Source: Bacteroidaceae bacterium | GTDB taxonomy: Bacteria; Bacteroidota; Bacteroidia; Bacteroidales; Bacteroidaceae | NCBI GenBank assembly: GCA_017622495.1 | Contig: JAGAQY010000006.1 | Span: 424 to 64,423, forward strand | Direction: 5' to 3' | Length of the DNA: 64,000 bases | Shown: positions 12,704 through 50,378 of the stretch, one piece after another | How the letters are laid out: each line of letters begins with the position of its first letter | How positions within the stretch are numbered: position 1 is the first letter of the stretch | Notes under the pieces: model-generated | Told to the model about the DNA's origin: nothing | The model's input: only the letters and a program-made list of their open reading frames with translations | Databases searched by the model: none | Made by a program: the position numbers and the translations under genes

Positions 12704-12751
12704 CAGAGATACAATAAAAACATTATTACCAATCATAACAAAAGTAAAGCT

Positions 12752-13594: not shown

Positions 13595-13615
13595 TTAATA
13601 TACAATAAATAGAAT

Positions 13616-25996: not shown

Positions 25997-27898
25997 TTAA
26001 AAGAAGACCTTCTTCCCATTGGTAATGTATATCCCTTTGCCTGCATGCTTGATGGGGCGGCCGAATAGGTCATAAATCTGCATCTCGCATCGAGGCATTG
26101 TTTCTATAGTTGGGTTAATATCAGTCTCGTCTACTCTTTTGATAGCATAAGAAATGGGTGCCTCGTTGGGATTTATGGAGAGGTATGCTTTTCCCGCCTT
26201 AGCTATGAATGCACTCTTAGGTGTGGGATTGTCCCCTATAGCCGTCTTGGGTACATAAAAGCCGACGATGCCATTAAGCGCATTAAGTGCATAGTGCGAT
26301 ACTCCATTGTTGACCTCAGTGTCTTCTGTGTATCCTATGAGATGGTTCCCACTAACATTTTCTGTAGTAGCGTTTGTGTATGATAATGTATAGGTCTTCG
26401 ATGATTGGGTTGTGGCAGCTTCGGACGAATAAAGTATAGCTGCAGTAGAGGAGGGTATGATACCGCTTATTGGGTGCAGTGTGGCAATTGTACTTTCCTC
26501 TATAGTGCAATAATAGGCATTGAGCCCCTCTGGGATATTCACGGGGACGGTGCTGTACCAAGTGGAGTATCCGTATTTGTTTGCTGTAACTTCGATATTC
26601 AAAGATGTGGTGTAATAGGTGTATGCAGAGGAGGTTTGATTGAGTTTATATAGTTGGATGGGGAGACTATTGGAATATAGATAATATCTAAATCTACTTC
26701 CACTTCCACTCTTATAATATCTGATAGCATAATTTTCTGCTTTACCTGTTCCCTTTATATATACACCATTATCCCCATTGTATGAAATGAAATTTACTTT
26801 TGGATTATCTGACGTAGATACTTGATTCTTCATTTCAGTGTTATAAAGGTATTTCCCACTTGTGGACTGTAGGGAATATCCATCTGTCGTTTTGCTGATA
26901 TAGAAAGCTGATGCATTTGTTTCTTCATTGCTTATGATATTATTATCTGAGATAATGACGCTTTTAAAATTTCCAGCAACATCTATATCGTTTAAACTAC
27001 CGTCGAAAGCTACACCTTCGCTTTCACAAACAATGAGGTAGGTGCCGCTCCAATCGCTCTGTTCATTCTCAATCTTTATGTAAGTAGGTTCTCTAACTTC
27101 TTCCTTCTTAGCATATACGGCATAGTACGTTATGGTGTCGTCAATGGTTACAGTCTCTCCTGGATTATTTAATTCTGGAGTCTTTGTTGTCCCGATAGGG
27201 AATGGAGTTGTACTCCAACCGACGAAGTCAAGTCCTGCGACTTCGGGAACTTCAGATGGTAAAGTATAGCTACTCCCTACCTTAAGTGTTTCTGTATTAT
27301 CTATGCTATCAACAGATAATGTTACAGTGCAATTCCTAATTAAATCTGAGTCTGTCAGTTTGTATAATACAATATCTTTTGGTTGTGTGCTTGTTTTATT
27401 GTAACATGAAAATAATGCGTATGTATTATTGTGTCGCATTTCATTGTTTGTGTTTGCTCCTTGAGCTACTATATTAGTTCTATCTTCAGTAATAGTGATT
27501 TCCCAACTGCTATTATTGGATAATGTGTTTTCTGTTCTTAACCAATTCTCTTTATCAGATGCTGCGTATAAATAGCCATCACCTGTATAGAAGGCGTACG
27601 TGTTATCTTTCTTCCCTTTTCTGAGGATGAGTTTTTGTATATCATAGGTGTTATTTGAGGCTGTTTCGACAGAACAAAATATGCCCTCTTTTCTAATGGC
27701 TATTTGGCCTCTGTTGTCGGCTTTCTGTTCTGTGCTCATTGCAAAGTTTGCATTATTGGCAACAATTATGACAGTGTCCCCTACTGACAATTCGGAAACA
27801 TCGGTTACCAATGTCCAAACAGATTCTGCATACGTAGAACTTATATAGCTAAATAAGAATGCGATAGCTATCAATAGCTTGTGGTGGCACTTATTCAT
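25997..27898 (-). CDS. T9SS-sorted surface protein with duplicated N-terminal modules and a Listeria-Bacteroides repeat
   Basis: Trimmed to the ATG at 27898, which gives MNKCHHKLLIAIAFLFSYISSTYA. Two similar modules each end in ..LYKL. A List-Bact repeat is present (FVGWSTTP...ITYYAVYA). The T9SS-like C-terminus is MQIYDLFGRPIKHAGKGIYITNGKKVFF. The gene is visibly AT-richer than its flanks. Confidence 0.65.
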   Translation of the reverse strand: MNKCHHKLLIAIAFLFSYISSTYAESVWTLVTDVSELSVGDTVIIVANNANFAMSTEQKADNRGQIAIRKEGIFCSVETASNNTYDIQKLILRKGKKDNTYAFYTGDGYLYAASDKENWLRTENTLSNNSSWEITITEDRTNIVAQGANTNNEMRHNNTYALFSCYNKTSTQPKDIVLYKLTDSDLIRNCTVTLSVDSIDNTETLKVGSSYTLPSEVPEVAGLDFVGWSTTPFPIGTTKTPELNNPGETVTIDDTITYYAVYAKKEEVREPTYIKIENEQSDWSGTYLIVCESEGVAFDGSLNDIDVAGNFKSVIISDNNIISNEETNASAFYISKTTDGYSLQSTSGKYLYNTEMKNQVSTSDNPKVNFISYNGDNGVYIKGTGKAENYAIRYYKSGSGSRFRYYLYSNSLPIQLYKLNQTSSAYTYYTTSLNIEVTANKYGYSTWYSTVPVNIPEGLNAYYCTIEESTIATLHPISGIIPSSTAAILYSSEAATTQSSKTYTLSYTNATTENVSGNHLIGYTEDTEVNNGVSHYALNALNGIVGFYVPKTAIGDNPTPKSAFIAKAGKAYLSINPNEAPISYAIKRVDETDINPTIETMPRCEMQIYDLFGRPIKHAGKGIYITNGKKVFF

Positions 27899-27924
27899 GA
27901 TATACTTGATTGTTAAATTTTCTG

Positions 27925-27932
27925 CAAATATA
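27925..27932 (-). promoter_or_regulatory. -7 promoter box (reverse complement TATATTTG) for the AT-rich T9SS gene
   Basis: The + strand reads CAAATATA, 27 nt upstream of the ATG at 27898. Confidence 0.45.
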
Positions 27933-28036
27933 CAACATCCCCCAATTATTTGAAAACAATGATTAAAAAACATTAGATGTTCTAAGGGGAATAGATAGAA
28001 AATATGTATCTTCGCAAAAGATTTTTATTCACCATT

Positions 28037-28585
28037 ATGGAAAGAACAGAGAATCACCCATTTGAATCGTTTCATTACTGCCCGCGGTGCGGGGCGCGGT
28101 TTGTGAGACACAACGAGAAGGCGTACCACTGCGAGGGGTGCGGATTCGTGTATTACTTCAACCCCTCGGCGGCGACGGTGGCGGTGATAGTGAACGAACG
28201 GAACGAGCTGCTGGTGTGCGTGAGGGCCAAGGAGCCGGCCAAGGGGACGCTGGACCTGCCGGGAGGGTTCTGCGACATGCACGAGAGCGCCGAGCAGGGC
28301 GTGGCACGAGAGGTGCTGGAGGAGACGGGCATGAGGGTGACGGAGACGAAGTATCTGTTTTCGCTGCCAAACACGTACCTGTACAGCGGATTCGTGGTGC
28401 ACACGATAGATGCGTTCTTCCTGTGCAGCGTGCCGCAAGGGGCTATGCCCGTACCACACGATGATGTGGCGGAGTGCCGCTGGGTGCCGATGGGCGAGGT
28501 GAAAGCCGATGACTTCGGGCTGGACTCGGTGAGGGAAGGGGTGAGGAGGATAATTGACAATTCGCAGTTGACAATTCGTGGTTGA
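28037..28585 (+). CDS. NUDIX hydrolase with N-terminal zinc ribbon (NADH-pyrophosphatase-like)
   Basis: Zinc ribbon CPRCG...CEGCG. Nudix box GGFCDMHESAEQGVAREVLEETG. The start may instead be 28004. Confidence 0.8.
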   Translation: MERTENHPFESFHYCPRCGARFVRHNEKAYHCEGCGFVYYFNPSAATVAVIVNERNELLVCVRAKEPAKGTLDLPGGFCDMHESAEQGVAREVLEETGMRVTETKYLFSLPNTYLYSGFVVHTIDAFFLCSVPQGAMPVPHDDVAECRWVPMGEVKADDFGLDSVREGVRRIIDNSQLTIRG

Positions 28586-28674
28586 GTTTTTAGGGCTTGC
28601 TGTGAAACCTTAATAAAATGGTGGAAATGAGAAGAAATATTAAAAAAAGTTTTGCCACCCGAATTTAAAGCAGT

Positions 28675-28682
28675 ACCTTTGC
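28675..28682 (+). promoter_or_regulatory. -7 box (TACCTTTG) with an upstream TTTTG (-33-like, 28650-28654) for the outer-membrane cluster
   Basis: TAnnTTTG lies 26 nt upstream of the ATG at 28708. The TTTG element sits about 20 nt further upstream. Confidence 0.55.
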
Positions 28683-28707: not shown

Positions 28708-29478
28708 ATGTTTTTAAGAAAAAGATTTGCAAAGGTGCAACTTACGTTGGTTGCTATCCTTGGTTTTTTGGGTGTAGGACAGGCAGTTGCGCAGGATGGG
28801 TTTCGTGTGCCCGCTGTGTCGACCAACTTGATTGACTGGGCACTGGTAACACCTAACGTGGGTGTTGACATACCGCTCACCAATCCGATATACATCAACG
28901 GCGCTTCGCTCTATGTGGAGGCCAAGATGAGCCTGAATGCCAACAAGGCGTATGCACCTGACATGAATTATGAGTATTTCTCGGGTAAGATCGAGTATCG
29001 CCGCCACTTCCGCTTCGGTGAGAACTCTAACGAGTGCTCGCTGATGACGAATGCATGGAACGGGCTGGCCCGCCTGTTTACCACCAAGAAGTACTGGAAC
29101 GAGCGTGTGAACGACCGCCTCAACGACAAGGGACGCAGCTATGCAGGTATATTCGCACAGTATGCGGACTTCTCGATGTGCCTGCCGCTGTATAACTACG
29201 AGCATGGACGCGTGGGACGCGCTGCCATTGCGGGCTTCTCGTATGGCTTCAACAAGCCTTTCTATAACTTCAGCAACAAGTATTGCCTGGAGTGGGAGTT
29301 CGGTACAAGCCTGGGCTGTGTGCTGAGCCAGTATGACTGCTACAACCGCGTGGAGAGCGAGGTGACTGGCAGCGGCAAGTGGTATTACCCAATCATCACT
29401 GACCTGCATGTGTCGCTGGTGCTGCGCAGACAGTCGATAAGTAAAATGTATAGGAAGACCCGCATGACGGACTATTAA
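28708..29478 (+). CDS. DUF3575-like small outer-membrane beta-barrel protein
   Basis: Signal peptide ending AVAQ. The family-typical start of the mature protein is VSTNLIDWALVTPNVGVDIPL. Confidence 0.7.
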   Translation: MFLRKRFAKVQLTLVAILGFLGVGQAVAQDGFRVPAVSTNLIDWALVTPNVGVDIPLTNPIYINGASLYVEAKMSLNANKAYAPDMNYEYFSGKIEYRRHFRFGENSNECSLMTNAWNGLARLFTTKKYWNERVNDRLNDKGRSYAGIFAQYADFSMCLPLYNYEHGRVGRAAIAGFSYGFNKPFYNFSNKYCLEWEFGTSLGCVLSQYDCYNRVESEVTGSGKWYYPIITDLHVSLVLRRQSISKMYRKTRMTDY

Positions 29479-29491
29479 TAATGATTGACGT

Positions 29492-30049
29492 ATGAAGAAG
29501 CATATAATGATAATGAAACGGAGCTTGTGGATAGCTGTAGCACTGATGGGGTTGTGCTCACAACCTGTGGTGGCACAGCATATCTCTGTGAAGACAAATG
29601 TTCTCTCCGACCTGGGACTGGTGCCCAACATCGGTACCGAACTGGTGATAGGCGAGAAGACGAGCCTGAACGTGGAACTGATGGGTACCGTAGCAAAACC
29701 CTGGGGACTCGACATGGAGATGGCTATGGGTAGCCTCCAGTACAGATACTGGATATCGAAGCGTTCGCTGACACAGCTCTTCGTAGGTGCAGGACTGAAG
29801 GCCGGCGCTTATACCTATAATAATAAGAACGGTCTGTACAGGGCCGATATGGCTGCCGCCGAGATCGTGGCCGGATATGCATGGCCGCTCTCGAAGCGCT
29901 GGAACCTGGAGGTGCAGTATGGATGGGGACTCCTCATGCGCTATGCCAATGACATGCCTGCTGCCGAGGGTGTCACAAGCCAACCGGGAATGAAGTATGA
30001 CATTGCTACAACGTCAATAGGTGTTAATTTCGTATATATCTTGAAATAA
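29492..30049 (+). CDS. DUF3575-like small outer-membrane beta-barrel protein
   Basis: Signal peptide ending VVAQ. Motifs VKTNVLSDLGLVPNIGTELVIG, LQYRYWIS and WNLEVQYGWG. Confidence 0.75.
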   Translation: MKKHIMIMKRSLWIAVALMGLCSQPVVAQHISVKTNVLSDLGLVPNIGTELVIGEKTSLNVELMGTVAKPWGLDMEMAMGSLQYRYWISKRSLTQLFVGAGLKAGAYTYNNKNGLYRADMAAAEIVAGYAWPLSKRWNLEVQYGWGLLMRYANDMPAAEGVTSQPGMKYDIATTSIGVNFVYILK

Positions 30050-32478
30050 TGAATAACTGGAAAAAGATCGTAGGGTTGCTGGCCATTGTCGTGATGATAG
30101 GCAGTGGCAACGCGTGGGCGCAGGACCACTATGTGCAGGGTAAGGTTGTCAACGTGACCGACGGGGACAAACCTTTTGCCGTAGGTACAGTAAACCTGTA
30201 TTTCGTGAAGAGCCAGAAAGAGGCTAAGGAGGTGGCGCGTAACCTGAGAAAGGACCACCACTACTATGATACCAAGGTGCAGGAGATGCTCATCATACAG
30301 CCTGACGAGAATGGTTACTACGCTTGTGAGGAGGCCTACTCGAATGGTTGCATCGTGGTGGACTATGGTATGGACAACTGTCCCATATTCCCCATCATGG
30401 ACAAGGGTGACCTGGATATCGAGGTTGCCGTGGAGGGTGAGAAGATTGACGAGGTAGAAATCGTGGCCAAGCTGCCCGATGCGGATGTGCTGGAGCCTAC
30501 GGCACCGACACTGATCGGTGACCAGATGTTTTTCACACCGAACTTTGCCGCCCAGGGACACAAGCACGACCGTATCATCTATCAGACGTACGTGACCACT
30601 TGCTTCAGCGAGACGGATACGATACTCGACTACTTTGACCCGGTAATCGTGGTGGGCGACCAGTTTGCCCTCACACAGGAGCGCCGCATGAGCTATGTGC
30701 CCCAGCGCGACACGCTGTATCCCTATACCGACACGACTATCGTGCTCGATGGAGAGTACAAGAAGTTTAGCCGCGACTACCAGTTTACCATGCCCGACCC
30801 CCACGCCTATTACCAGCTCAAGCTCACCAAGGTGACACAGCAGTATCCTGGTATCGTGGAGACTATCGACACGATAGCTTGTAAGTGCCAGCGCGAGGAC
30901 CCGCTGCAGTATTTCCAGTTGGGATTCGCATCGTTTGCCCTGGATCCTCTCAAGTATAGACCCAGCTCACAGCTGCGCGCAAGAAACGATGCCGACACCG
31001 TATCGCTCACCTTCCTCGTGGGTAGCACGCGCATAGACCCCAAGAACCCGAAGAACGAGACGGAGTGGAACAAGATCGTGGATAACCTGAAGGCTATCCT
31101 CGAGACTACAGGCTCGCGCATACAGTCATACGAAATCGTGGGTGTGGCCTCTCCTGAGGGTGGATATCAGTCGAACTTGAACCTCGCCGGACGCCGTGCC
31201 AACTATGCTATCGAGCAGCTCAGGGCGCAGGGATTGCTGAAGTCTACAACTCCTACCGAATGGCGTGGTGAGGTGGCCGGATGGGACCAGGTGGCCGACC
31301 TCATGCAGCAGCGCGACCCCGTGAAGGCTGCCGAGATTGCCGAGATCGTGGCCAACTACCCCACAATAGACGCGCAGTCGGCTCAGATGCGCCGCTTGCC
31401 CTACTACAGGGAGATCGCCGACAGTATATTGCCCAAGTTGCGTTGTGTGCGCACAAGCTGTAAGTATACCGTACGCCGTAACCTGAGCAGTGCCGAGGTG
31501 ATGGAGATATACAGAACGAATCCTGACTTCAAGTTTGAACCTCTCGAGTTCTGGATGCTCATACAGGGTATCAAGAATCCTGAGGAGAAGATTGCCATCT
31601 GCAAGCGCGCACTTGCCGAGATCACATACGACTCGCCCATACGCCCCTTCGCTGCCAATGCCATGGCTCAGCAGAAGATTGACTTGTCGATGATGGATAC
31701 CGTATTGCTGAAGGAGTTTATCTTCCCGCAATATCGTGTGAACCAGGATCTGAAGATTTCGGATACCTATACTAAGATATATAACCCCGGTGAAATCTTG
31801 GGTAACCAGGTATATATGTACCTGCTCAGCAGACGATTCTTCTCGGCTGCAAGCCTCGTACGCCGCCTGGAGAACATTCCCGAGTTTAGAGAACTGTCGA
31901 TGCTGGTTGCCTGCCTCAACGGTTACTACGCTCAGGATCCCGAGGTGCTGAACGCCAACCTTGGCAAGGATGTAATCAACGATATCGTACTGCACTTGGC
32001 AATGGGTGCCAAGCAGAACAAGGGTAAGGTGTCGCGCGAGATGCAGCGCTACCACAATGTGGAGGCCCTGAAGATGATTCGCCAGCTCAACGACCTGCCC
32101 GCTGAGAAACAGGCGCTGGGCTACTACCTCAAGGCTGTAATCTATAGCCGTCTCGACCTGGCTATCGCCGAGGCCAACGTGTTTACAGGATATCTCTATG
32201 AGAATAAGGCTGTAGACTGCCTGGTGAAGTGCTTCGAGCTGGATGAGTCGTTCATCCGCCGATGCCAGGGTGATGCCTATGTGAGAGATTCATACCAGGA
32301 TGGCGACGTACGTGAGAGAGACCTCTATGAGGAGGCTGTGGCCAGATACTACAGATGGAAAGATGGCGACGGGGATCTGGGATATACCGTGTTGGATGAC
32401 ATGTCGGTAGACGAGTTTGGATTTGGTGCCCCCGATCCTACTCCCGAGGATGTAGAAGACTGGGGCTTAACAAAGTAA
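30049..32478 (+). CDS. large secreted protein with central OmpA-like/DUF3868-like motif and helical-repeat C-terminal half
   Basis: Signal peptide ending AWAQ. The central motif IVGVASPEGGYQSNLNLAGRRANYAIEQL is an OmpA-type peptidoglycan-binding variant. It is seen next to DUF3575 genes in Bacteroidales type V pilus loci. The start overlaps the previous stop (TAATG). Confidence 0.55.
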   Translation: MNNWKKIVGLLAIVVMIGSGNAWAQDHYVQGKVVNVTDGDKPFAVGTVNLYFVKSQKEAKEVARNLRKDHHYYDTKVQEMLIIQPDENGYYACEEAYSNGCIVVDYGMDNCPIFPIMDKGDLDIEVAVEGEKIDEVEIVAKLPDADVLEPTAPTLIGDQMFFTPNFAAQGHKHDRIIYQTYVTTCFSETDTILDYFDPVIVVGDQFALTQERRMSYVPQRDTLYPYTDTTIVLDGEYKKFSRDYQFTMPDPHAYYQLKLTKVTQQYPGIVETIDTIACKCQREDPLQYFQLGFASFALDPLKYRPSSQLRARNDADTVSLTFLVGSTRIDPKNPKNETEWNKIVDNLKAILETTGSRIQSYEIVGVASPEGGYQSNLNLAGRRANYAIEQLRAQGLLKSTTPTEWRGEVAGWDQVADLMQQRDPVKAAEIAEIVANYPTIDAQSAQMRRLPYYREIADSILPKLRCVRTSCKYTVRRNLSSAEVMEIYRTNPDFKFEPLEFWMLIQGIKNPEEKIAICKRALAEITYDSPIRPFAANAMAQQKIDLSMMDTVLLKEFIFPQYRVNQDLKISDTYTKIYNPGEILGNQVYMYLLSRRFFSAASLVRRLENIPEFRELSMLVACLNGYYAQDPEVLNANLGKDVINDIVLHLAMGAKQNKGKVSREMQRYHNVEALKMIRQLNDLPAEKQALGYYLKAVIYSRLDLAIAEANVFTGYLYENKAVDCLVKCFELDESFIRRCQGDAYVRDSYQDGDVRERDLYEEAVARYYRWKDGDGDLGYTVLDDMSVDEFGFGAPDPTPEDVEDWGLTK

Positions 32479-32502
32479 TAATAGAAAGACGTATATAGGA
32501 AT

Positions 32503-35376
32503 ATGATGAGATATAAGTATCTACGCAGCTTTTTGATGGTGTTGGGGGTAGTTTTGCTCATGCCCCAGGGTATGCATGCCCAGAACATCGATGATTTTAA
32601 GAAGGATACGACCTCCTTTAACGCTCTGGACCACTTGATAACTCCGCGTTATCGCACGCCCGACAAGCATGTATTTGTACCCGGTTGGCTCAAGCACATC
32701 TCAATGGGTGTGTATACCGACCAGTCGATGCCGTTCATCGCACCGCACCGTAACGACTTCATCTCGAAGTATAACTTCCACTGGGGTGCTTTCGTGAACA
32801 AGTACTTCGACCAGCACAACGGTATACGCCTCAACTATGACTATGCCAACATGGCTCTTGCCGATGACAAGTATGCACTACGTCATCAGCTGGGACTCGA
32901 CTACATGTGGGATATGTCGAACTACTACTTCGGATACAACGAGGCTCGACCCTGGTCGCTGGCTTATGTTGTGGGTATGGACTTCGGACGCAGCTCTATC
33001 GCCGATGCAGGATATTATTATGGTGGCTTGCACACTGGTCTGCAGGTAAGGGCCAACCTCTCGCCCCGATCATACTTCTTCGTAGAGCCCCGCGTATCGG
33101 CATATACCAACAACCATACTCGTGACGACTGGCACAACATCGACGTGAAGAGCCACGTGCTCGTAGGTTGGGGTGCCCGCCTCACATCGCCCTACAAGCC
33201 CTTGCAGTGGACTGTAGACGAGGATACCGTGACCAAGACAGACAACTACTTCATACAGCTCAGCATGGGTGCATTCGACAGCTTTGCCGACATGCGCGCC
33301 GGTGCTCCCGAGATGGGTCCTTCGTTCCACTTCGCTGTGGGTCGCTGGTTTAACCCCAAACTCGGTGTGCGCACATCGCTCTATGCCGAGCAGCTGAACA
33401 GGATACACCGCAACAGACGTGCAGGTGCCATGGTAGAGGGTGTGATGAGTATCCCTCACTTCTTCGGATTCGATATGGGACGCTTCGGCCTTGAGGTGTC
33501 GGGCGGTATGCGCTACGACCGTGTGTGCTGGGCTCTGGGTCAGTGGGGTAGCTCATCGGCCATCCAGCTGAAATACTTCGTGAACAAGCAGTTTGCCCTG
33601 TTTGCCGACGCCAGATACTCATCTATGTATAATGGCGAGCACGACCGCTACGATGAGTATGGTAACTTCAACCTCGGTGTGGAGTTCTACAAGTCGAACT
33701 ACAACCGCTACTCTGCCAAGTACATGACCATGGGCGATGTAGAGTACCGCAGAGGGTTCTTCGCTTCGGTAGCTTATGGACGTCAGTACCCCTTCCTCAT
33801 GGGTGGCGACTGGCTGGCATCTCTGAATCCTAGCTACAACTTCACATTGGGTTATCGCTTCGACGACTACAGTGCCTTGCGCCTGAAGCTCGACAATACC
33901 GAGTATGAGGTAGAGGGCATCAAGTCGAAGACAAACTGGAGCACCTTCTCGCCCCAATACATGTTTAACGTGACCAACTGGTGGCTGGGCAACACCAATC
34001 ACCGCTTCGACCTGCGTCCGTACGCCGGTCCTGTAATCTCGCTCACTGATGCTGAGTATTTTGGTCACGGTATCGAGATCGGTATGCCGGTAGTATGGAA
34101 GGTGGCTCCTGCCATCGAGCTCTTCGTAGAGCCTTCGTACCGCTACATGTCGGGTTGGGCACTCAGACAGTGTCTGCTGTATGACAAGGGTATGTGGAAC
34201 ATGACCGCAGGTATCAGCTATGTGAACGGGCCTCTCTACTTCCGCCGATATATGGAGAAGTTCAACTGGGGTAAGGACTGGTTCGTATCTGTATTCGGCG
34301 GTCTGCAGAAAGACCATAACTCTAACGGATACGATGACGTGATGATGGAGCCCGGTGACATCACTGCCCTGCCTATCGGTAATGTTGCCGTAGGTCGATG
34401 GTTCGGCCCTGTAGGTGCTCGTGTATCAGCCTTCGGTTCGCTCAACCGTACTTACCAGGAGCCCTTCCTGCTCGCTATGGCTTATGCAGGTGGTCGTCTC
34501 GAGGGTATGCTGAACGTATCGTCGCTCTTTGCTCCTACAAAGGAACTCAGAAAGTTTGAGGTCGACATCCTCGGCGGTTATCATGGTAGTGTGCTGTATC
34601 GTCCGCTGCCGCAGTATGAAGACCACTGGGCGTATGCCAGCGGTCCGACTGTAGCTGCACAGCTCAAGTACTATGTACGCGACGGTATAGGTCTGTTCAT
34701 CGAGCCCCGCCATACATGGCTCGGCTATGAGCGTCAGTTCGTCGACGAATATGGTGGTACCATCCCCCACTTCGAGCAGCGCATCACCGATGTTAGCGTG
34801 GGTATGGAAATACGTCAGCGCAACCCCATCAAGGAGGAGCTCAAGAAGAGCTACGCTGGATTCACTCCGCGCACGTTCGTATCGGCCGACTTTGGTTTGT
34901 CTTATCCGATGAACTTCTTCCACGTGAAGCCCGTGAAGGATGTGTTGGGCATCTTCAGTCCGCACGTGGGGCTGGCCGTAGGTCGTGAGTTCAATGCACT
35001 GAGCTCTATCCGTTTCAGAGCTACATATAACAATCTCCAGTCTGACTTCACCGATGCTATTGAGCATGGCATGTCAGGTAGTGTAGAATATATGCTCAAT
35101 GTGACCAACGCAATGTTGGGCTACGACCCCTCGCGCATCATGGATGTAAAGGCTACCGTGGGTGTAGATGCATTGTACTCTACCTACAAGAACCGTACCA
35201 ACCTGGGTTGGCACCTGGGCGCTCAGTGGGGATTCCGTGCTTCGGACAACTGGAAGATCTTTGCCGAAGGTAACGTAGCTATATACCACAAGCCCGAAAT
35301 CGTTGAGGGTATGCGTATCGTACGTGACAATGGTCTTATGCCTCAGGCATCGATCGGTGCAGCCTACTACTTCTAA
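32503..35376 (+). CDS. 957-aa outer-membrane protein built from five tandem small-beta-barrel-like modules
   Basis: Signal peptide ending MHAQ. Five modules of roughly 170-190 aa share a strand pattern. Shared elements include AVGRWFNPKLGVRTS / AVGRWFGPVGARVS / AVGREFNALSSIRF, YMFNVTNWWLG / YMLNVTNAMLG / GMLNVSSLFA, and LFVEPSYRYM / LFIEPRHTWLGY / FFVEPRVSAY. The C-terminus is AAYYF, a beta-signal-like terminal Phe. Confidence 0.6.
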   Translation: MMRYKYLRSFLMVLGVVLLMPQGMHAQNIDDFKKDTTSFNALDHLITPRYRTPDKHVFVPGWLKHISMGVYTDQSMPFIAPHRNDFISKYNFHWGAFVNKYFDQHNGIRLNYDYANMALADDKYALRHQLGLDYMWDMSNYYFGYNEARPWSLAYVVGMDFGRSSIADAGYYYGGLHTGLQVRANLSPRSYFFVEPRVSAYTNNHTRDDWHNIDVKSHVLVGWGARLTSPYKPLQWTVDEDTVTKTDNYFIQLSMGAFDSFADMRAGAPEMGPSFHFAVGRWFNPKLGVRTSLYAEQLNRIHRNRRAGAMVEGVMSIPHFFGFDMGRFGLEVSGGMRYDRVCWALGQWGSSSAIQLKYFVNKQFALFADARYSSMYNGEHDRYDEYGNFNLGVEFYKSNYNRYSAKYMTMGDVEYRRGFFASVAYGRQYPFLMGGDWLASLNPSYNFTLGYRFDDYSALRLKLDNTEYEVEGIKSKTNWSTFSPQYMFNVTNWWLGNTNHRFDLRPYAGPVISLTDAEYFGHGIEIGMPVVWKVAPAIELFVEPSYRYMSGWALRQCLLYDKGMWNMTAGISYVNGPLYFRRYMEKFNWGKDWFVSVFGGLQKDHNSNGYDDVMMEPGDITALPIGNVAVGRWFGPVGARVSAFGSLNRTYQEPFLLAMAYAGGRLEGMLNVSSLFAPTKELRKFEVDILGGYHGSVLYRPLPQYEDHWAYASGPTVAAQLKYYVRDGIGLFIEPRHTWLGYERQFVDEYGGTIPHFEQRITDVSVGMEIRQRNPIKEELKKSYAGFTPRTFVSADFGLSYPMNFFHVKPVKDVLGIFSPHVGLAVGREFNALSSIRFRATYNNLQSDFTDAIEHGMSGSVEYMLNVTNAMLGYDPSRIMDVKATVGVDALYSTYKNRTNLGWHLGAQWGFRASDNWKIFAEGNVAIYHKPEIVEGMRIVRDNGLMPQASIGAAYYF

Positions 35377-35396
35377 GGATTGGCCAACAGATAGAA

Positions 35397-35437
35397 TGAA
35401 GAGGGAGAATCGTGAGATTCTCCCTCTTCATCTTTTG
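35397..35437. terminator. bidirectional terminator between convergent genes
   Basis: Perfect 15-bp stem TGAAGAGGGAGAATC / GATTCTCCCTCTTCA, loop GTGA, with T-rich sequence downstream. Confidence 0.8.
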
Positions 35438-35458: not shown

Positions 35459-36445
35459 TCATTTGTGCTTGGCGAACACGACCTTGCTGCCTTTGACGCG
35501 TTTCTTGTATTCGGGGCGCTCCTCGATGAAAGAGAGGATGTGTCGCTTGCGCTTGTCTTCGTGCAGCTCGTTTACATGGATGAGTATGCCGGTCTCCTCT
35601 ACATTGCCAAACTCGTGGTTGATGGCGGTGCCGAACATCAGCATGGTGGGGGAGAGGTTCATGTAGGCGTTTACCAGGGGAGGTATGTTGCATCCTCGCT
35701 TGCGCACCTCTGCATTGAGTATGCGGTAGTCGAGCTTGAAGTCGTCTTCCACGAACAGCTCTCTGAACTGCTTGGGGTTGTGCTCCAGGAACAGAGGCTG
35801 GTAGGCACTCACCAGGTGGCGGCGGTCGCCAAAATGCTTGTCGAGGAAGTAGAGTATCATGTCGCGGGCAAGCCTGTCGTAGGAGGGGTACATGGTCATT
35901 TTGCCAAAGAAGTACTCGGCACCATCGAGCACTACGGTGAGTGAGGCAAGGCCGTCGAAGAGGTTGTCAAGTGCAAACAGACCCTTGGTGTCGGTACGTG
36001 ATGCCTGATACTCTATGGCTACGAATGAACGGCCCAGTTCAAGGGTGCGGGGCAGATAGTGCTGGATAAACTTCTCGGAGAAGTGGAACATGTGTGAGGT
36101 GGCGAGGATTGGCTGTCCCTTGTCGTCGAACTTGGCATCGGAGCCATGCAGGTAGCGGTATCCGCCTATAATCTCCTCTGCATCGGGGTTCCACACCACG
36201 AGTTGCTTGTAGGGTACCTCCATCGTATCGAACTCATCGATGTCGACACTCATGCCAGTGCCACCGCCACCTGCACGAAAAGCAATCTCGCGCAAGCGAC
36301 CTATCTCCTGCATCACGTTGGGGGCAGTGTGGGCATCGATTATGTATAGCTCATTGCCACCGCGATTGGTGTGTCGCAGGAGTCGTTCCTCGGTGAGTTC
36401 GGATTTCAGTAGTTCCTTACTGATGGGGGCGATAACATTTTCCAT
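35459..36445 (-). CDS. glsB: GNAT-fold N-acyl amino acid synthase (OlsB/GlsB, commendamide-synthase-like)
   Basis: Strong resemblance, from memory, to Bacteroides N-acyltransferases. Recalled segments are IGRLREIAFRAGGGGTG, DIDEFDTME, GRSFVAIEYQ, YFFGKMTMYPSY and IPPLVNAYMNLSPTM. Confidence 0.75.
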   Translation of the reverse strand: MENVIAPISKELLKSELTEERLLRHTNRGGNELYIIDAHTAPNVMQEIGRLREIAFRAGGGGTGMSVDIDEFDTMEVPYKQLVVWNPDAEEIIGGYRYLHGSDAKFDDKGQPILATSHMFHFSEKFIQHYLPRTLELGRSFVAIEYQASRTDTKGLFALDNLFDGLASLTVVLDGAEYFFGKMTMYPSYDRLARDMILYFLDKHFGDRRHLVSAYQPLFLEHNPKQFRELFVEDDFKLDYRILNAEVRKRGCNIPPLVNAYMNLSPTMLMFGTAINHEFGNVEETGILIHVNELHEDKRKRHILSFIEERPEYKKRVKGSKVVFAKHK

Positions 36446-46598: not shown

Positions 46599-47627
46599 TC
46601 AGTTTGCGATTCGCTTTATCAAGCGGTCTATTTTCCAGAGGATGCCTTTACGGCGGTGTTTCCAGAAGTATTTCATGTATAGTCGTTCGGCAATGCCCCT
46701 TATGCTGTTATGGTAGGCCTTGGCTTGTTGCCTCATGCGTTTCACATAGCGGCGTCCCCAGTATACACGATTGTAGCGTAGTGCATTCTCCTGTGGCTGG
46801 TCTATGATATGGCATATAAACTCTGTCAGCTGTTTGAGTTTAGCTTCTATGCTGTCCTCGTCAGGATGCTTCAGTGCTGGTGTAGCCAGCATGCGGTTAT
46901 ATAGCTCTGGATTACTGTCAATATGTTTGACGGTCTCCAGCACTTCGTCCCATGAGGTGTACTTGTTGCAGTTGATGAATGCATCCTCATTGAATGTTTC
47001 AGCTACTGCAGGGTCGCCCCAGTAGATGGGGACAGTCTGTGCAGCAAACGATTGCACCAGCTTTTCGGTACAGTAGCCGGGGTAGCTGCTGTTTTCGAAA
47101 GAGAAGCTGAACTTGTGCCCCTGTTCAAAGGCGAGTTTGTCTGCTACGGGGCCTCCGATATTGTTTCTATAACGTCCACCTGATGAGACGGGCTTATACT
47201 CCGACAACTGTTCGAAAAAGCGCTCACGTACCTCTGAGGCGCGGTCGTTGGAGTAGACGAAACTGCAGAAACCGCTCTTTTCGGGAACTGGTTTTTTGTG
47301 TTTCTCCTGCATCAGCCGAAAGTCTTTCTGGTATCTGTTGAGATAGTATATAGGTAATCTGAAGTATCTGTCGCCAAACTCCATGCGGTCAAACCCTATG
47401 GCATAGTCATAGAGGTTGAAGTCGGCACACTGGTTCTCGCCCGTGTAGAATATCTTCACACAGTCGTAGCGCAGATGCTCATCGCCAAAAACGGAGCAGA
47501 AGAGGTATTCTGGATTGTCAGAGAGTTCCACGTCGTAGTATTCGCTCAGGAGCTGGTAGAAGAGATTGTTCTCGGGCACGAAATCGTCCCAGAAGTCAAC
47601 AAACTTGATGCGGATATGCTTCTTCAT
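46599..47627 (-). CDS. GT10-family alpha-1,3/4-fucosyltransferase
   Basis: IKFVDFWDDF start, YTGEN, and the family motif FSFSFENSSYPGYCTEKL. An ATGA overlap links it to the upstream gene. Confidence 0.8.
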   Translation of the reverse strand: MKKHIRIKFVDFWDDFVPENNLFYQLLSEYYDVELSDNPEYLFCSVFGDEHLRYDCVKIFYTGENQCADFNLYDYAIGFDRMEFGDRYFRLPIYYLNRYQKDFRLMQEKHKKPVPEKSGFCSFVYSNDRASEVRERFFEQLSEYKPVSSGGRYRNNIGGPVADKLAFEQGHKFSFSFENSSYPGYCTEKLVQSFAAQTVPIYWGDPAVAETFNEDAFINCNKYTSWDEVLETVKHIDSNPELYNRMLATPALKHPDEDSIEAKLKQLTEFICHIIDQPQENALRYNRVYWGRRYVKRMRQQAKAYHNSIRGIAERLYMKYFWKHRRKGILWKIDRLIKRIAN

Positions 47628-48637
47628 AACTTCATTTTTGTTTTGTGTATATAGTAGGGCAGCACCTTGAATGCCAATCGTGGGTATTGGCGGACGAATG
47701 TATGCAGCAGGCGCAGCTTAAGGTCGGCATGGTAGTAAGCGTTTGCCTTGTAGTAAGGCACGTAGCTGAGCAGATGATTGTATATCTTGCATAGTGTGAG
47801 CTGCTGCGGTTGCTGCTCATTATAGATATAGGTGAGTATTCCCAGCAGATAGCCTTTCTTTAGGTATATATAGTCCAGTTCTGCTTGGTTGGCCTCGTAT
47901 AATCCATTTTCGCGGGCAAACTGCATGAGTAGGTCGAATGACTTGATTTTGTCTCGATAGCGGCTGGGATTGCGTGTTTCAGAGAGTGATTCCTCATGCA
48001 TGAGATAGTGGTACAGAGGCTTGTCGACACAAGCTATTTGGCGTGCTGCCAAGAGTGTGCAGGTGAGGAAATAGCTGTCTTCGGCACTGCGTGTGGCAGG
48101 GAAGGAGATGGCATATTCGTTAAGCAACGAGCGGCGATAGAGGAAGGAGACGAAGAGCGTGGTGTAATGGGTGAGGAAGAAGCAACGTTTCTCTCCACTA
48201 AATGCGCCACTTTCAATCACGGGATTATTCATCGGTTGAGTCTCAGCTCCCTTTACCAACTGTGCTTGGCAATAGGCAAGGTCGGCATCATACTGCCTGG
48301 CGGCAGTGTAGAGCTGCTCGCAGAAGTCGCGCTCTACCACGTCGTCACTATCAATAAATGCGATGTATTCTCCTTGGGCAGCTTCGATGCCTATATTGCG
48401 TGCTGGGCCAGGACCCATATTGTGCGGTGTGGCAAGGAAGCGGAATGTCTTATTGCCCGGGTGAGTGTCGACAAACCTCTGGGCACGCTCCATACTATCA
48501 TCGCGCCCATGATCATCGACAAGCAACACTTCAATATTGTCCAAGGTCTGCGCTACAATCGATGCCAGGCAGGCCTCGATATAGGGACCTGCATTGTAGA
48601 TGGGGATAATGATAGATATCTTGGGCATAGTCAGCAT
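47624..48637 (-). CDS. GT2-family glycosyltransferase
   Basis: ISIIIPIYNAGPYIEACL..., LLVDDHGRDDS, and a DSDD DxD motif. The start may instead be 48628. Confidence 0.85.
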   Translation of the reverse strand: MLTMPKISIIIPIYNAGPYIEACLASIVAQTLDNIEVLLVDDHGRDDSMERAQRFVDTHPGNKTFRFLATPHNMGPGPARNIGIEAAQGEYIAFIDSDDVVERDFCEQLYTAARQYDADLAYCQAQLVKGAETQPMNNPVIESGAFSGEKRCFFLTHYTTLFVSFLYRRSLLNEYAISFPATRSAEDSYFLTCTLLAARQIACVDKPLYHYLMHEESLSETRNPSRYRDKIKSFDLLMQFARENGLYEANQAELDYIYLKKGYLLGILTYIYNEQQPQQLTLCKIYNHLLSYVPYYKANAYYHADLKLRLLHTFVRQYPRLAFKVLPYYIHKTKMKL

Positions 48638-49590: not shown

Positions 49591-50378
49591 AGCGGTGTGT
49601 CGATCCATTTAATATTACCATGCACGGCTATCTCCTTGGGTAGTTGCATGTAGTCTCCAAACATCCTTGATAGATAGCTATGTGCACTCTTGGGAGCATA
49701 GAAGATGCTATCCTCGAAGGGTATCTCCACCAAGGGGAATATATCAGCTACACACCTCTCGGCCTTGTATATCATCCCGAAGGTATGATGATAGTTGCTT
49801 CCCTTATGGAATAGGGAAACATATCCTCTGAAAAGGGGGAATACGACACGCGTAAGGACTGCGTAGTTGAAGTTGTATAGCCAACGATGCTTGTACACCT
49901 TGTGGTGGCACAGGTTGACGTATAGTCTGTTGGCAATGCGATATAGCGCATACGGCGAGCGCTCCAGAGGGAATATGTCGATGAAGCATCCTTTGTGCTT
50001 CATCTCAAACGCAAAGCTCTCTTCGATGCATGAGTGCTTGTCGCGCACCTTGGCGTAGAGATGGGGATAGTCCTTATCGGTGCTTCTGTCTTGAAGCATG
50101 TACTGTTCGGGGAGTTCCTCGCGCAGTAGGGGCAACAGACGTAGATAGTCATCGCGCAGCATTTCGATGTCAAGGTCATCGTCCCAAGGAATGAATCCCC
50201 CATGGCGTACGGCCCCCAGCAGTGTGCCCGAGCTGAGCCAGTAGGGTATGTCGTGGGCACGGCAGATCTTATCCACCGCTTTCAGTATGTCGAGCATCCG
50301 TAGCTGCCCTCTACGCAGTAGCGAGCCGTCGGGACTGTATTTCTCGCGCAGTTCTTGCTGCACTTTTCGGTCTATCAT
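49587..50378 (-). CDS. licD: LicD-family phospho-substituent (phosphocholine-type) transferase
   Basis: LicD motif IPYWLSSGTLLGAVRHGGFIPWDDDLDIEM. ATG 50378 forms an ATGA overlap with the upstream stop. The track ORF extends to 50408. Confidence 0.8.
   Translation of the reverse strand: MIDRKVQQELREKYSPDGSLLRRGQLRMLDILKAVDKICRAHDIPYWLSSGTLLGAVRHGGFIPWDDDLDIEMLRDDYLRLLPLLREELPEQYMLQDRSTDKDYPHLYAKVRDKHSCIEESFAFEMKHKGCFIDIFPLERSPYALYRIANRLYVNLCHHKVYKHRWLYNFNYAVLTRVVFPLFRGYVSLFHKGSNYHHTFGMIYKAERCVADIFPLVEIPFEDSIFYAPKSAHSYLSRMFGDYMQLPKEIAVHGNIKWIDTPL

What the first reader, a model, noticed from the sequence alone, without database searches (positions are those of the whole stretch)
28708..35376. 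Four-gene outer-membrane operon resembling the front end of a type V pilus locus but lacking any fimbrillin
Four co-directional genes follow a good -33/-7 promoter (TTTTG ... TACCTTTG). Their junctions are 13 nt, a 1-nt TAATG overlap, and 24 nt. A strong bidirectional terminator closes the cluster.

The four products are:
- DUF3575-like barrel, 256 aa.
- DUF3575-like barrel, 185 aa.
- An 809-aa secreted protein with an OmpA/DUF3868-type motif (VGVASPEGGYQSNLNLAGRRANYAIEQL) and a long helical-repeat half.
- A 957-aa multi-barrel protein.

In Bacteroidales, DUF3575 plus a DUF3868/OmpA-like gene normally precede Mfa/FimA-type pilin lipoproteins. No lipoprotein pilin, anchor or tip gene is present here. 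A giant repetitive outer-membrane protein takes that position instead. All four products have SPase I-type A-Q cleavage sites.

This could be an uncharacterised envelope assembly, for example a peptidoglycan-tethered outer-membrane complex.
Basis: partly seen in the sequence, partly recalled or inferred. Interest (0 to 1): 0.7.

Follow-up and report, generated by a model that had tools for sequence, protein, structure and literature searches.

The report
Pilin-less outer-membrane barrel and tether operon
This is a real four-gene operon of a gut Bacteroidaceae bacterium encoding two small outer-membrane barrels, a periplasmic protein with a cell-wall-binding-type domain and a chain of five fused barrels; relatives carry the same genes wrapped around a type V pilus gene set that is missing here, and no function has been tested for any of them.

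Summary
Four co-directional ORFs lie at 28708-35376, with a Bacteroides-type promoter and a 16-17 bp hairpin terminator.

- g1 and g2 are DUF3575 proteins.
- g3 is a secreted non-lipoprotein. It has a carboxypeptidase-regulatory-like β-sandwich, a second β domain, an OmpA-like fold and a helical-repeat half.
- g4 is modelled as five tandem 8-stranded β-barrels.

All four genes are under purifying selection (dN/dS 0.07-0.15).

The main new result is comparative. A core trio, DUF3575 → g3-like → multibarrel, is intact in 51 of 58 genome loci across Bacteroidales; the other 7 are cut by contig ends. It occurs in three layouts:
- A: this window, head-DUF3575 plus trio.
- B: 24 loci where DUF5119 and 1-5 Mfa-like lipoprotein pilin genes lie upstream of the trio; in the 22 complete ones they sit exactly between the g1 and g2 homologues.
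- C: trio alone, for example in B. xylanisolvens.

g1 is most closely related to the head genes of the layout-B pilus operons. The window therefore looks like both ends of a composite pilus operon without its pilin cassette.

My best reading is a peptidoglycan-tethered outer-membrane raft, at moderate confidence. DUF3868, usher and pilin assignments are not supported. The held literature describes only the multibarrel class, by prediction.

The parts
28651..28681 (+). Bacteroides-type promoter: -33 TTTG (28651-28654) and -7 TACCTTTG (28674-28681)
   Evidence: Read. The GTAnnTTTGC box is invariant across six clade-A loci whose upstream DNA is otherwise divergent. The consensus itself (TTTG / TAnnTTTG) is from my own knowledge of Bacteroides promoters.
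28708..29478 (+). g1: 'head' DUF3575 outer-membrane barrel, 256 aa, predicted cleavage A28/Q29, no K/E-rich tail
   Evidence: Pfam DUF3575 E=2e-11. It clusters with the head genes of layout-B pilus operons in an NJ tree. The C-terminal K/E-rich tail seen in most head homologues is absent. dN/dS 0.15.
29492..30049 (+). g2: 'proximal' DUF3575 barrel, 185 aa, first gene of the conserved trio
   Evidence: Pfam DUF3575 E=8e-29. It forms a clade separate from the head genes. Present immediately upstream of the g3 homologue in every locus not cut upstream of g3 by a contig end. dN/dS 0.08.
30049..32478 (+). g3: 809-aa secreted non-lipoprotein (predicted cleavage A24/Q25); presumed periplasmic scaffold
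   Evidence: AF2 model with mean pLDDT 84. The family has 472 clusters at 50% identity with E<=1e-30. No lipobox Cys in its signal peptide (sequence; N-termini listed). dN/dS 0.09.
30127..30426 (+). g3 residues 27-126: carboxypeptidase-regulatory-like β-sandwich
   Evidence: Strands in the model. Foldseek hit to the SusC NTE domain 9hfj, TMt 0.74, probability 1.0; assigning that hit to these residues is my inference, because the output gives no query coordinates. Homologues hit PF13715 and the SusC/RagA N-terminus.
30508..30882 (+). g3 residues 154-278: second β domain, unassigned
   Evidence: Secondary structure of the model. No family match.
30976..31473 (+). g3 residues 310-475: OmpA-like α/β domain with the motif GVASPEGGYQSNLNLAGRRA
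   Evidence: Foldseek hits to 3td5, 4rha, 5u1h and 6top (PorE), probability 1.0, TMt 0.5-0.71. Pfam OmpA 22.8 bits, below cut-off. The motif aligns without gaps to GYTDSTGSRQHNMDLSQRRA of PA0833. S368, P369, G371, N376, L379 and R383 are invariant.
31489..32358 (+). g3 residues 481-770: α-helical repeat (TPR-like) half
   Evidence: Helices in the model, pLDDT about 90. The B. xylanisolvens homologue gives weak TPR_1 and TPR_END hits. No PDB sequence match.
32503..35376 (+). g4: 957-aa multibarrel outer-membrane protein, predicted cleavage A26/Q27, C-terminal ...AAYYF
   Evidence: OMP_b-brl 37.8 bits. Five repeats. Model with 40 strands in five groups of eight. dN/dS 0.07.
32617..32664 (+). g4 residues 39-54, FNALDHLITPRYRTPD: conserved N-terminal, presumably periplasmic, peptide before barrel 1
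   Evidence: The motif F(N/D)A(L/T)xYx(L/F)QKRYRxPD is recognisable in multibarrel homologues of all three layouts. A role as docking peptide is inference.
32698..33180 (+). g4 barrel unit 1 (residues 66-226)
   Evidence: Eight strands. Unit HMM hit E=4e-48.
33247..33693 (+). g4 barrel unit 2 (residues 249-397)
   Evidence: Eight strands. Unit HMM hit E=5e-36.
33754..34224 (+). g4 barrel unit 3 (residues 418-574)
   Evidence: Eight strands, grouping short neighbouring strand segments at 502-513 and 522-533. Unit HMM hit E=4e-43.
34276..34818 (+). g4 barrel unit 4 (residues 592-772)
   Evidence: Eight strands. Unit HMM hit E=2e-42.
34870..35370 (+). g4 barrel unit 5 (residues 790-956)
   Evidence: Eight strands, the best-modelled unit. 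Unit HMM hit E=8e-45. Best Pfam OMP_b-brl stretch at 818-925.
35396..35431 (.). Hairpin terminator shared with the convergent GNAT-family gene (35459-36445, minus strand)
   Evidence: 16-17 bp stem with 7 G-C pairs, called on both strands. Sequence.

Best explanation
The operon encodes a self-contained envelope module.

**Proposed assembly.** All four products are exported by Sec and cut by signal peptidase I at A/Q. g1, g2 (small DUF3575 barrels) and g4 (five tandem 8-stranded barrels in one chain) are inserted into the outer membrane. g3 stays in the periplasm, because it has no lipobox and I recognised no type IX secretion (T9SS) C-terminal sorting domain by eye.

**Proposed mechanism.** g3 binds peptidoglycan through its OmpA-like domain. 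It holds the barrels through its helical-repeat half and/or its N-terminal β-sandwich. Candidate docking sites on g4 are the conserved N-terminal peptide FNALxxLxxRYRxPD and the unusually long, conserved β4-β5 periplasmic turn that recurs in each barrel. The result would be a multi-point staple between outer membrane and cell wall: a 'split OmpA' with the barrels and the wall-binding domain on separate chains.

**Relation to pili.** In many relatives this staple is co-transcribed with type V pilins and may give the pilus a wall-anchored footing. Here the pilin cassette is absent. The module then acts alone or serves pili encoded elsewhere.

**Shown versus inferred.**
- Shown: gene structure, domain folds, repeat architecture, conservation, synteny and selection.
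- Inferred: localisation, g3-barrel contact, peptidoglycan binding and any link to pili in this organism.
For: - **Barrel proteins.** g1 and g2 match DUF3575 and g4 matches OMP_b-brl above the Pfam cut-offs. g4 is modelled as 5 x 8 strands and ends in ...YYF. DUF3575 proteins are found in P. gingivalis outer-membrane vesicles (PMC12937337).
- **g3 wall-binding domain.** The central domain superposes on OmpA-like peptidoglycan-binding domains, including the T9SS anchor PorE, at probability 1.0 and TMt 0.5-0.71. Asn376 and Arg383 are invariant, at the canonical spacing.
- **Linkage.** The trio is intact in 51 of 58 genome loci and in none is a member missing from an uncut contig. The two most distant multibarrel hits, at 22-25% identity, also follow DUF3575 plus a g3-like gene. 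Junctions are tight or overlapping. The module keeps its integrity in different chromosomal contexts.
- **Periplasm-facing features of g4.** Predicted extracellular loops are short (2-18 aa) and least conserved (0.53). Periplasmic turns are most conserved (0.69), with a 10-13 aa β4-β5 turn in each unit. The N-terminal motif is conserved in all layouts.
- **Selection.** dN/dS is 0.07-0.15 for all four genes.
Against: - The canonical peptidoglycan-binding Asp of the OmpA motif (TDxxG) is an invariant Ser here (SPEG). The Pfam OmpA score is below the gathering cut-off. Wall binding may therefore be altered or lost.
- No complex prediction or experiment links g3 to the barrels.
- The g4 model has only moderate confidence (pLDDT 68, pTM 0.37, 13 sequences). 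Closure of each unit as a separate barrel could not be inspected.
- The loop and turn assignment assumes a periplasmic N-terminus.
- Operon linkage would equally fit an assembly-factor role for g3.
Confidence: 0.45

Rival explanations
1. Pilus base acting in trans. The module is an accessory of type V pili, either a wall-anchored footing or an assembly platform for lipoprotein pilins. This organism keeps it to serve pilins encoded at other loci.
For: - In 24 of 58 loci, from Bacteroidaceae, Alistipes/Rikenellaceae and Cryptobacteroides, DUF5119 and 1-5 Mfa-like lipoprotein genes lie in the same transcriptional direction directly upstream of the trio. In the 22 complete loci they sit between the head DUF3575 and the trio. 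Gaps run from overlaps to about 220 nt, often 0-30 nt or overlaps.
- g1 groups with those head genes.
- Bacteroides genomes carry many pilus operons, for example 22 in B. fragilis (PMC11601372).
Against: - About 20 Bacteroides genomes have the trio alone, with unrelated flanks.
- No pilin gene occurs anywhere in this 64-kb window.
- In the held papers I checked, none assigns such proteins a role in type V pili.
- 8-stranded barrels are too narrow to translocate pilins (general knowledge).
Confidence: 0.2
2. Dedicated assembly factor. g3 is a periplasmic chaperone or BAM-docking factor needed to insert the tandem barrels of g4, and perhaps the DUF3575 barrels. It is not a permanent structural partner.
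For: - g3-like genes always directly precede the multibarrel gene.
- The helical-repeat half recalls TPR proteins such as BamD that bind outer-membrane-protein signals (my knowledge).
- The N-terminal β-sandwich of the B. xylanisolvens homologue weakly matches BamP and strongly matches the SusC N-terminal extension. BamP docks on BamA/BamD in Flavobacterium (PMC12611786).
- How multibarrels are inserted is an acknowledged open question (PMC8346858).
Against: - The BamP match is far below its cut-off (22.8 against 230 bits) and covers only the shared β-sandwich.
- An OmpA-like domain is not expected in a pure chaperone.
- g3 length does not track barrel number: 809-819 aa with 3, 5 or 7 barrels.
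Confidence: 0.15
3. Co-regulated but independent surface proteins. The barrels act on their own as adhesins, phage or colicin receptors, or small-solute or lipid channels. The avidity hypothesis proposed for poly-8 proteins belongs here, as does a polysaccharide-export role like GfcD/YjbH. g3 would be unrelated to them.
For: - Solan et al. suggest that multivalent binding of repeated glycan epitopes could explain poly-8 proteins in gut genera (PMC8346858).
- GfcD/YjbH combine two barrels with a peptidoglycan-binding domain in capsule operons.
- L003 lies among capsule genes.
Against: - Predicted extracellular loops are short and carry no domains.
- Flanks differ between loci, and capsule genes are not consistently adjacent.
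- The strict three-gene linkage, reciprocal and across families, argues for a shared function.
Confidence: 0.1

Closest known systems
Poly-8 multibarrel outer-membrane proteins of Bacteroidetes (Solan et al., PNAS 2021, PMC8346858)
   Same: g4 is a single chain of tandem 8-stranded barrels. It comes from a member of the Bacteroidetes, to which that class is confined. Barrel number varies between relatives (2, 3, 4, 5, 7 here; 2-11 in the paper).
   Different: That class is known only from prediction. The sections of the paper I read assign it no experimentally tested function or gene context. Here every member sampled is preceded by DUF3575 and a g3-like gene. I could not check whether g4's family is in their list, because no supplement is held.
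OmpA / Pal / PorE-type peptidoglycan anchors
   Same: The g3 central domain has the OmpA-like fold with conserved Asn and Arg. As I recall, PorE of the T9SS also combines a carboxypeptidase-regulatory-like domain, an OmpA-like domain and TPR repeats; only the PorE C-terminal domain match is a tool result (6top).
   Different: - g3 is not a lipoprotein and, in contrast to OmpA, has no barrel of its own.
- It has no β-propeller and no T9SS context.
- The canonical Asp is an invariant Ser.
- Barrels and wall-binding domain are on separate polypeptides.
Type V (FimA/Mfa) pilus operons of Bacteroidales
   Same: g1 is most closely related to the DUF3575 head gene of 22 complete (plus 2 upstream-cut) pilus-containing loci. 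DUF3575 also lies near Mfa-like genes in B. thetaiotaomicron (BT4227-BT4234, PMC10434189).
   Different: There is no stalk, anchor or tip pilin and no lipoprotein here. The trio also occurs with no pilus genes at all.
BamP and the SusC N-terminal extension (carboxypeptidase-regulatory-like periplasmic domains)
   Same: The N-terminal β-sandwich of g3 and its homologues matches the SusC NTE by fold (9hfj) and sequence (TIGR04056, E=1e-13). It matches BamP weakly.
   Different: Only that one domain is shared. The scores are far below the family cut-offs. g3 has no TonB-dependent barrel, and nothing in it matches BamP beyond that first domain, so no equivalent of the BamP seam-plugging loop was found.
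GfcD / YjbH (12-12 multibarrel with a middle peptidoglycan-binding domain, group 4 capsule)
   Same: It combines several barrels with a wall-binding domain in one functional unit.
   Different: It is proteobacterial, has two 12-stranded barrels with the domains fused in one chain, and sits in a capsule operon. No sequence relation was detected.

Membership tests
DUF3575 (PF12099) | Match to the Pfam model above the gathering score | tested here: met
   g1 scores 43.8 bits and g2 100.7 bits against a cut-off of 21.1.
OmpA-like peptidoglycan-binding domain (PF00691) | Match to the Pfam model above the gathering score | tested here: not met
   22.8 bits against a cut-off of 27.2. Some homologues carry a precomputed PF00691 hit.
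OmpA-like peptidoglycan-binding domain (PF00691) | α/β OmpA_C fold | tested here: met
   Foldseek probability 1.0 and TMt 0.5-0.71 to 3td5, 4rha, 5u1h, 1r1m and 6top, from a model with pLDDT about 85 in this region.
OmpA-like peptidoglycan-binding domain (PF00691) | Asp and Arg pair that contacts diaminopimelate (D271/R286 in A. baumannii OmpA, from my knowledge) | tested here: inconclusive
   Arg383 and Asn376 are invariant. The position of the Asp is an invariant Ser368, followed by Pro-Glu/Asp.
Poly-8 multibarrel OMP superfamily (Solan 2021) | Two or more 8-stranded barrels in one chain | tested here: met
   Five sequence repeats and 5 x 8 strands in the model. Barrel closure was not inspected and pTM is 0.37.
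Poly-8 multibarrel OMP superfamily (Solan 2021) | Restricted to Bacteroidetes, with barrel number varying by amplification and deletion | tested here: met
   All 58 loci are from Bacteroidales. Unit counts are 2, 3, 4, 5 and 7.
Poly-8 multibarrel OMP superfamily (Solan 2021) | Listed in, or homologous to, the authors' 28 families | not testable with these tools
   No supplementary files are held.
Type V pilus locus | Lipoprotein pilins of the FimA/Mfa fold (stalk, anchor, tip) | tested here: not met
   None of the four products gives an Mfa_like, FimA or DUF5119 hit. The iterated profile finds none in the 64-kb window.
Type V pilus locus | DUF3575 head gene of the kind that opens pilus operons | tested here: met
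   g1 clusters with head genes of layout-B loci and apart from the proximal DUF3575 genes.
   No hit at E<=1 for g3.
PorE-like T9SS anchor | Lipoprotein with TPR, β-propeller, carboxypeptidase-regulatory-like and OmpA_C domains (architecture from my knowledge) | tested here: not met
   The g3 signal peptide has no lipobox Cys. The model has no propeller. Only the domain types partly overlap.
BamP (NF053692) | Match above the NCBIfam cut-off | tested here: not met
   The window g3 gives no hit. The B. xylanisolvens homologue scores 22.8 bits against 230.
Chaperone-usher pilus usher | Large usher barrel with plug domain | tested here: not met
   No usher family hit. g4 is built of 8-strand repeats.

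The most novel reading that the evidence does not exclude
The DUF3575 / g3 / multibarrel trio is the missing wall-anchored base of a subclass of type V pili. A multi-barrel raft would be stapled to peptidoglycan by g3, the lipid-anchored pilus would be mounted on it, and g3 would double as the insertion factor for tandem barrels. The pilin-less copies, such as this one, would be bases that serve pilins encoded elsewhere or that have been re-used as general envelope staples.
Probability: 0.15. Interest if true: 0.8.

Novelty: new variant of a known kind. Interest (0 to 1): 0.6.

Why it matters
Multibarrel outer-membrane proteins have been known only from prediction since 2021. As far as the held literature shows, they have no demonstrated function, partner or insertion route.

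This locus and its 58 relatives give them a fixed genetic context: a DUF3575 barrel and a periplasmic protein with an OmpA-like domain, and in many genomes a type V pilus gene set as well. That makes three open questions directly testable in cultured Bacteroides, for example B. ovatus/xylanisolvens, B. clarus and B. gallinarum:
- What do poly-barrel proteins do?
- How are tandem barrels assembled?
- Are type V pili, so far thought to be held only by a lipid anchor, connected to the cell wall?

It also gives a first functional lead for DUF3575, a family common in gut and oral Bacteroidales.

Tried and rejected
- **DUF3868:** no Pfam signal in g3.
- **Pilin or usher identity for g3/g4:** no family hit. 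Folds are OmpA-like and generic outer-membrane barrel.
- **Sequence search of g3 and g4 against PDB:** nothing significant. The helical half alone also gave nothing.
- **g4 barrels derived from DUF3575:** profile-profile probability 0.9%. Rejected.
- **Scan with the full g3 alignment A2:** too divergent for pattern design. A narrower alignment, A3, worked.
- **Homologue search with g1, to sample DUF3575 contexts in general:** returned only 16 close relatives, so the general claim that DUF3575 heads pilus loci rests on my 24 loci plus one paper.
- **Membership in the Solan list:** supplement not held.
- **Phase-variable (invertible) promoter:** no flanking inverted repeats, only a weak 15-nt pair that is probably chance.
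- **Link to capsule synthesis:** flanks differ between loci. The polysaccharide cluster in this window lies 11 kb away, behind housekeeping genes.
- **Correlation of barrel number with pilin number or g3 length:** none seen.
- **Literature on the trio, on locus tags of the B. ovatus copy, and on DUF3575:** nothing functional.

Full report
**1. The observation**

- g1, 28708-29478, 256 aa
- g2, 29492-30049, 185 aa
- g3, 30049-32478, 809 aa
- g4, 32503-35376, 957 aa

The junctions are 13 nt, a one-base TAATG overlap and 24 nt.

Upstream, TTTG lies at 28651-28654 and TACCTTTG at 28674-28681. They are 19 nt apart and the second box ends 26 nt before the ATG. I aligned the upstream regions of six loci that carry the same four-gene layout. 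The DNA is otherwise poorly conserved, yet GTAnnTTTGC is invariant. This gives the promoter call phylogenetic support.

Downstream, a hairpin with a 16-17 bp stem at 35396-35431 is detected on both strands. It separates the operon from a convergent GNAT-family gene.

Against the closest genome locus (L005, about 90% protein identity), dN/dS is 0.15, 0.08, 0.09 and 0.07 for g1 to g4. These are real genes under purifying selection.

The exact proteins are in NCBI as MBO5083378-81 and MBQ3239440.1, from Bacteroidaceae metagenome-assembled genomes. They are named only 'DUF3575 domain-containing protein' or 'hypothetical protein'. The closest genome-collection relatives come from rectal samples of cattle, buffalo and sheep.

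**2. What the four products are**

*g1 and g2.* Both match Pfam DUF3575 above the cut-off, at E=2e-11 and 8e-29.

*g3.* Its only Pfam hit is a sub-threshold OmpA match, 22.8 bits against a cut-off of 27.2, at residues 322-409. There is no DUF3868 signal. It has no sequence relative in the PDB. An AlphaFold2 model built on 33 homologues is confident, with mean pLDDT 84. It shows:
- a signal peptide;
- a β-sandwich at residues 27-126;
- a second β domain at 154-278;
- an α/β domain at 310-475;
- a long helical-repeat half at 481-770;
- an acidic, largely unstructured C-terminal tail.

Foldseek places an α/β domain on OmpA-like peptidoglycan-binding domains with probability 1.0 and TMt 0.5-0.71. 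The hits include A. baumannii OmpA 3td5, Salmonella OmpA 4rha, OprF 5u1h, RmpM 1r1m and the type IX secretion (T9SS) anchor PorE 6top. The search also returns the N-terminal extension of a SusC transporter (9hfj, TMt 0.74). The output gives no query coordinates. I assign the OmpA-like hits to residues 310-475, consistent with the Pfam stretch at 322-409, and the 9hfj hit to the N-terminal sandwich. Homologues in Bacteroides hit CarbopepD_reg_2 above threshold. They also hit the SusC/RagA N-terminus (E=1e-13) and, weakly, TPR models.

A profile of the OmpA-like region aligns GVASPEGGYQSNLNLAGRRA without gaps to GYTDSTGSRQHNMDLSQRRA of PA0833. Asn376, Leu379 and Arg383 are invariant across the family. 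The canonical Asp position is an invariant Ser368, followed by Pro and Glu/Asp. The fold and one of the two key wall-binding residues are kept, and the other is replaced.

*g4.* It passes the OMP_b-brl cut-off in three stretches. It contains five internal repeats of about 170-190 residues. Four of the five repeats carry a recurring (F/I)xEP motif; unit 2 has FADA and unit 5 FAEG at that position. The AlphaFold2 model has moderate confidence (pLDDT 68, pTM 0.37, 13 sequences). It gives forty strands in five groups of eight, and the chain ends in ...AAYYF. Foldseek returns only generic outer-membrane barrels.

*Export signals.* All four products have a hydrophobic N-terminus ending in A-Q, and none has a lipobox Cys in its signal peptide. 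This is read from the sequences and contrasts with the pilin ORFs. A-Q sites are the usual signal peptidase I pattern in this phylum (my knowledge).

**3. Relatives and gene context**

*Family sizes.* Word-based protein searches made the g3 and g4 families look tiny, with 53 and 17 hits. An exhaustive profile search found 472 clusters at 50% identity with E<=1e-30 for g3, and more than 150 of them match over nearly the full length of the profile.

*Survey.* A scan of one genome per species returned 58 loci, all from Bacteroidales. They include Bacteroidaceae with cultured Bacteroides species, Alistipes/Rikenellaceae, Cryptobacteroides and Odoribacter. I called ORFs in all loci and classified them with iterated profiles seeded from the window and from locus L001. 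I verified the seeds with Pfam.

*Core trio.* A core trio is intact in 51 of 58 loci: a DUF3575 protein of about 185-200 aa, then a g3-like protein, then a multibarrel protein. The other seven loci are cut by contig ends. No uncut contig lacks a member. One locus (L058, B. finegoldii) looks pseudogenised. The association is reciprocal. The two most distant g4 hits, at 22-25% identity, are also preceded by DUF3575 and a g3-like gene.

*Three layouts.*
- Layout A: head DUF3575, DUF3575, g3, multibarrel. Found in this window, L003/L004 and L005-L008.
- Layout B: head DUF3575, DUF5119, one to five Mfa-like genes, DUF3575, g3, multibarrel. Found in 24 loci, two of them cut upstream. They include B. 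clarus, B. gallinarum, B. propionicigenes, B. cutis, Mediterranea, Phocaeicola, Alistipes and Cryptobacteroides.
- Layout C: the trio alone. Found in about 20 loci including B. xylanisolvens XB1A, B. acidifaciens, B. congonensis and a B. thetaiotaomicron MAG. Its flanks are unrelated: hydrogenase, heparinase-like, DUF5690 and a porin.

*Pilins in layout B.* The pilin-type ORFs carry lipoboxes in 83 of 92 cases by a permissive pattern that also fires in 13-45 of the barrel and g3 ORFs; the listed pilin N-termini show canonical Cys sites. The last pilin gene is often separated from the proximal DUF3575 gene by 0-30 nt or overlaps it, although gaps reach about 220 nt in a few loci.

*Origin of g1 and g2.* A neighbour-joining tree of all DUF3575 proteins splits them into a 'head' clade and a 'proximal' clade. 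g1 falls in the first, as sister to the layout-B head genes. g2 falls in the second. The window therefore corresponds to both ends of a composite pilus operon with the pilin cassette absent.

*Loss or gain.* I cannot polarise loss against gain without a rooted tree. Layout B is the taxonomically widest, which mildly favours loss in layouts A and C.

*Other comparative points.*
- Most head proteins carry a K/E-rich C-terminal tail of up to about 300 residues. g1 has none.
- Layout-A loci other than L005 sit in different chromosomal contexts, so the module travels as a unit.
- The number of barrel units in the last gene is 2, 3, 4, 5 or 7, and it differs even between close relatives.
- The barrel units are not detectably related to DUF3575.

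**4. How it most likely works**

The steps that are shown are gene structure, folds, repeat architecture, linkage and selection. The rest is inference.

My preferred model (confidence 0.45) is a peptidoglycan-stapled outer-membrane raft. g1, g2 and g4 are barrels in the outer membrane. g3 is periplasmic, because it has an SPase I signal, no lipid anchor and no sorting domain that I recognise. g3 would bind the wall through the OmpA-like domain and hold the barrels through the helical half or the N-terminal sandwich.

Two features of g4 point to the periplasmic face, assuming the usual periplasmic N-terminus.
- Predicted extracellular loops are short (2-18 residues) and the least conserved class (0.53). 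Periplasmic turns are the most conserved (0.69). Each unit has an unusually long 10-13 residue β4-β5 turn with a conserved motif.
- Multibarrel proteins of all three layouts share an N-terminal peptide, F(N/D)A(L/T)xYxLQKRYRxPD, before the first barrel. A peptide of this kind is what helical-repeat domains typically bind.

The short loops argue against the adhesin or avidity idea proposed for this protein class.

The layout-B loci suggest that in many species the staple is made together with type V pili. In this organism it either works alone or serves pilins encoded elsewhere.

Rivals:
- a pilus base acting in trans (0.2);
- g3 as a dedicated insertion factor for tandem barrels (0.15). This is prompted by the strict g3-then-multibarrel order, the weak BamP/SusC-NTE similarity of the first domain and the role of BamP at BamA (PMC12611786);
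- independent surface or transport proteins (0.1).

Against wall binding stand the Asp-to-Ser replacement and the sub-threshold Pfam score.

**5. Comparison with what is known**

*Multibarrel class.* g4 fits the 'poly-8' multibarrel superfamily predicted by Solan et al. That class has 289 proteins with 2-11 barrels. It is found only in Bacteroidetes, mainly Prevotella and Bacteroides, and its barrel number changes by amplification and deletion (PMC8346858). I could not test formal membership because no supplement is held. In the sections I read, the paper gives no gene context and no experimentally tested function for this class.

*Wall anchors.* g3 works like OmpA, Pal or PorE-type wall anchors in fold. 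It is not a lipoprotein, lacks a barrel and a propeller, and deviates at the Asp.

*Type V pili.* The operon is not a type V pilus locus, since no pilin is present. It does share its head gene with such loci. DUF3575 next to Mfa-like genes is also visible in B. thetaiotaomicron BT4227-4234 (PMC10434189). DUF3575 proteins occur in P. gingivalis vesicles (PMC12937337).

*Literature.* Searches for DUF3575, DUF3868, multibarrel, type V pili with barrels, and locus tags of the B. ovatus copy found no functional study of the trio.

**6. Verdict**

- The conserved unit is a trio plus an optional head gene.
- The pilins, where present, sit in the middle of the locus, not at its end.
- DUF3868 is not involved.

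Each component belongs to a known or predicted family. The fixed combination, its tie to type V pilus operons and the pilin-less form seen here are not described in the literature I could search. I rate it a new variant of a known kind, with interest 0.6. It is not bizarre, but it gives a concrete handle on what multibarrel outer-membrane proteins and DUF3575 do, and on whether type V pili have a wall-anchored base.

Noticed in passing
window 25997-27973 (- strand): A 658-aa ORF has 38% GC against about 53% around it. It has no Pfam hit and a signal-like N-terminus. Its C-terminus (...GKGIYITNGKKVFF) looks by eye like a type IX secretion sorting domain. It is conserved in synteny in L005.
   Followed up: partly
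L023 13762-18066; L025 18960-20600; L029 18801-20441; L043 17235-18869: Extra g3-like paralogues occur near the trio. L023 has two in tandem directly after its multibarrel gene. Three other loci have a roughly 545-aa copy about 5-7 kb downstream.
   Followed up: no
L058 (Bacteroides finegoldii JCM 13345) 8612-13602: The trio is broken into several short ORFs (g3 as 159 + 402 aa; the multibarrel gene as 334 + 98 + 72 + 120 aa). It is probably a pseudogenised copy.
   Followed up: no
L003 8023-9423, L006, L022, L062 and other head genes; L003/L006/L008 multibarrel N-termini: Head DUF3575 proteins carry K/E/Q-rich low-complexity C-terminal tails of 0 to about 300 residues. The tail is absent in g1 of the window and in L007. 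A similar K/E/Q/A-rich insert follows the signal peptide of some multibarrel proteins.
   Followed up: partly
window 28554-28581: A tandem 14-nt direct repeat, TTGACAATTCGCAG / TTGACAATTCGTGG, lies at the 3' end of the NUDIX gene just upstream of the operon promoter. It is also present in L005.
   Followed up: no
window 28668-28682 and 28729-28743: A 15-nt inverted repeat, 80% complementary, pairs the -7 box region with the start of the g1 coding sequence. It may be chance.
   Followed up: no
window 46599-58625 (- strand): A polysaccharide-synthesis gene cluster: GT10 fucosyltransferase, GT2, polysaccharide pyruvyl transferase and a fused nucleotidyl-transferase/aminotransferase. Two rhomboid genes, SecDF and a transglutaminase-like gene separate it from the operon.
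   Followed up: partly
L039 9977-12010 (B. xylanisolvens XB1A g3 homologue): Its N-terminal domain matches the SusC/RagA N-terminal extension (E=1e-13). It also matches the NCBIfam BamP model (E=5e-5), far below that model's cut-off.
   Followed up: partly
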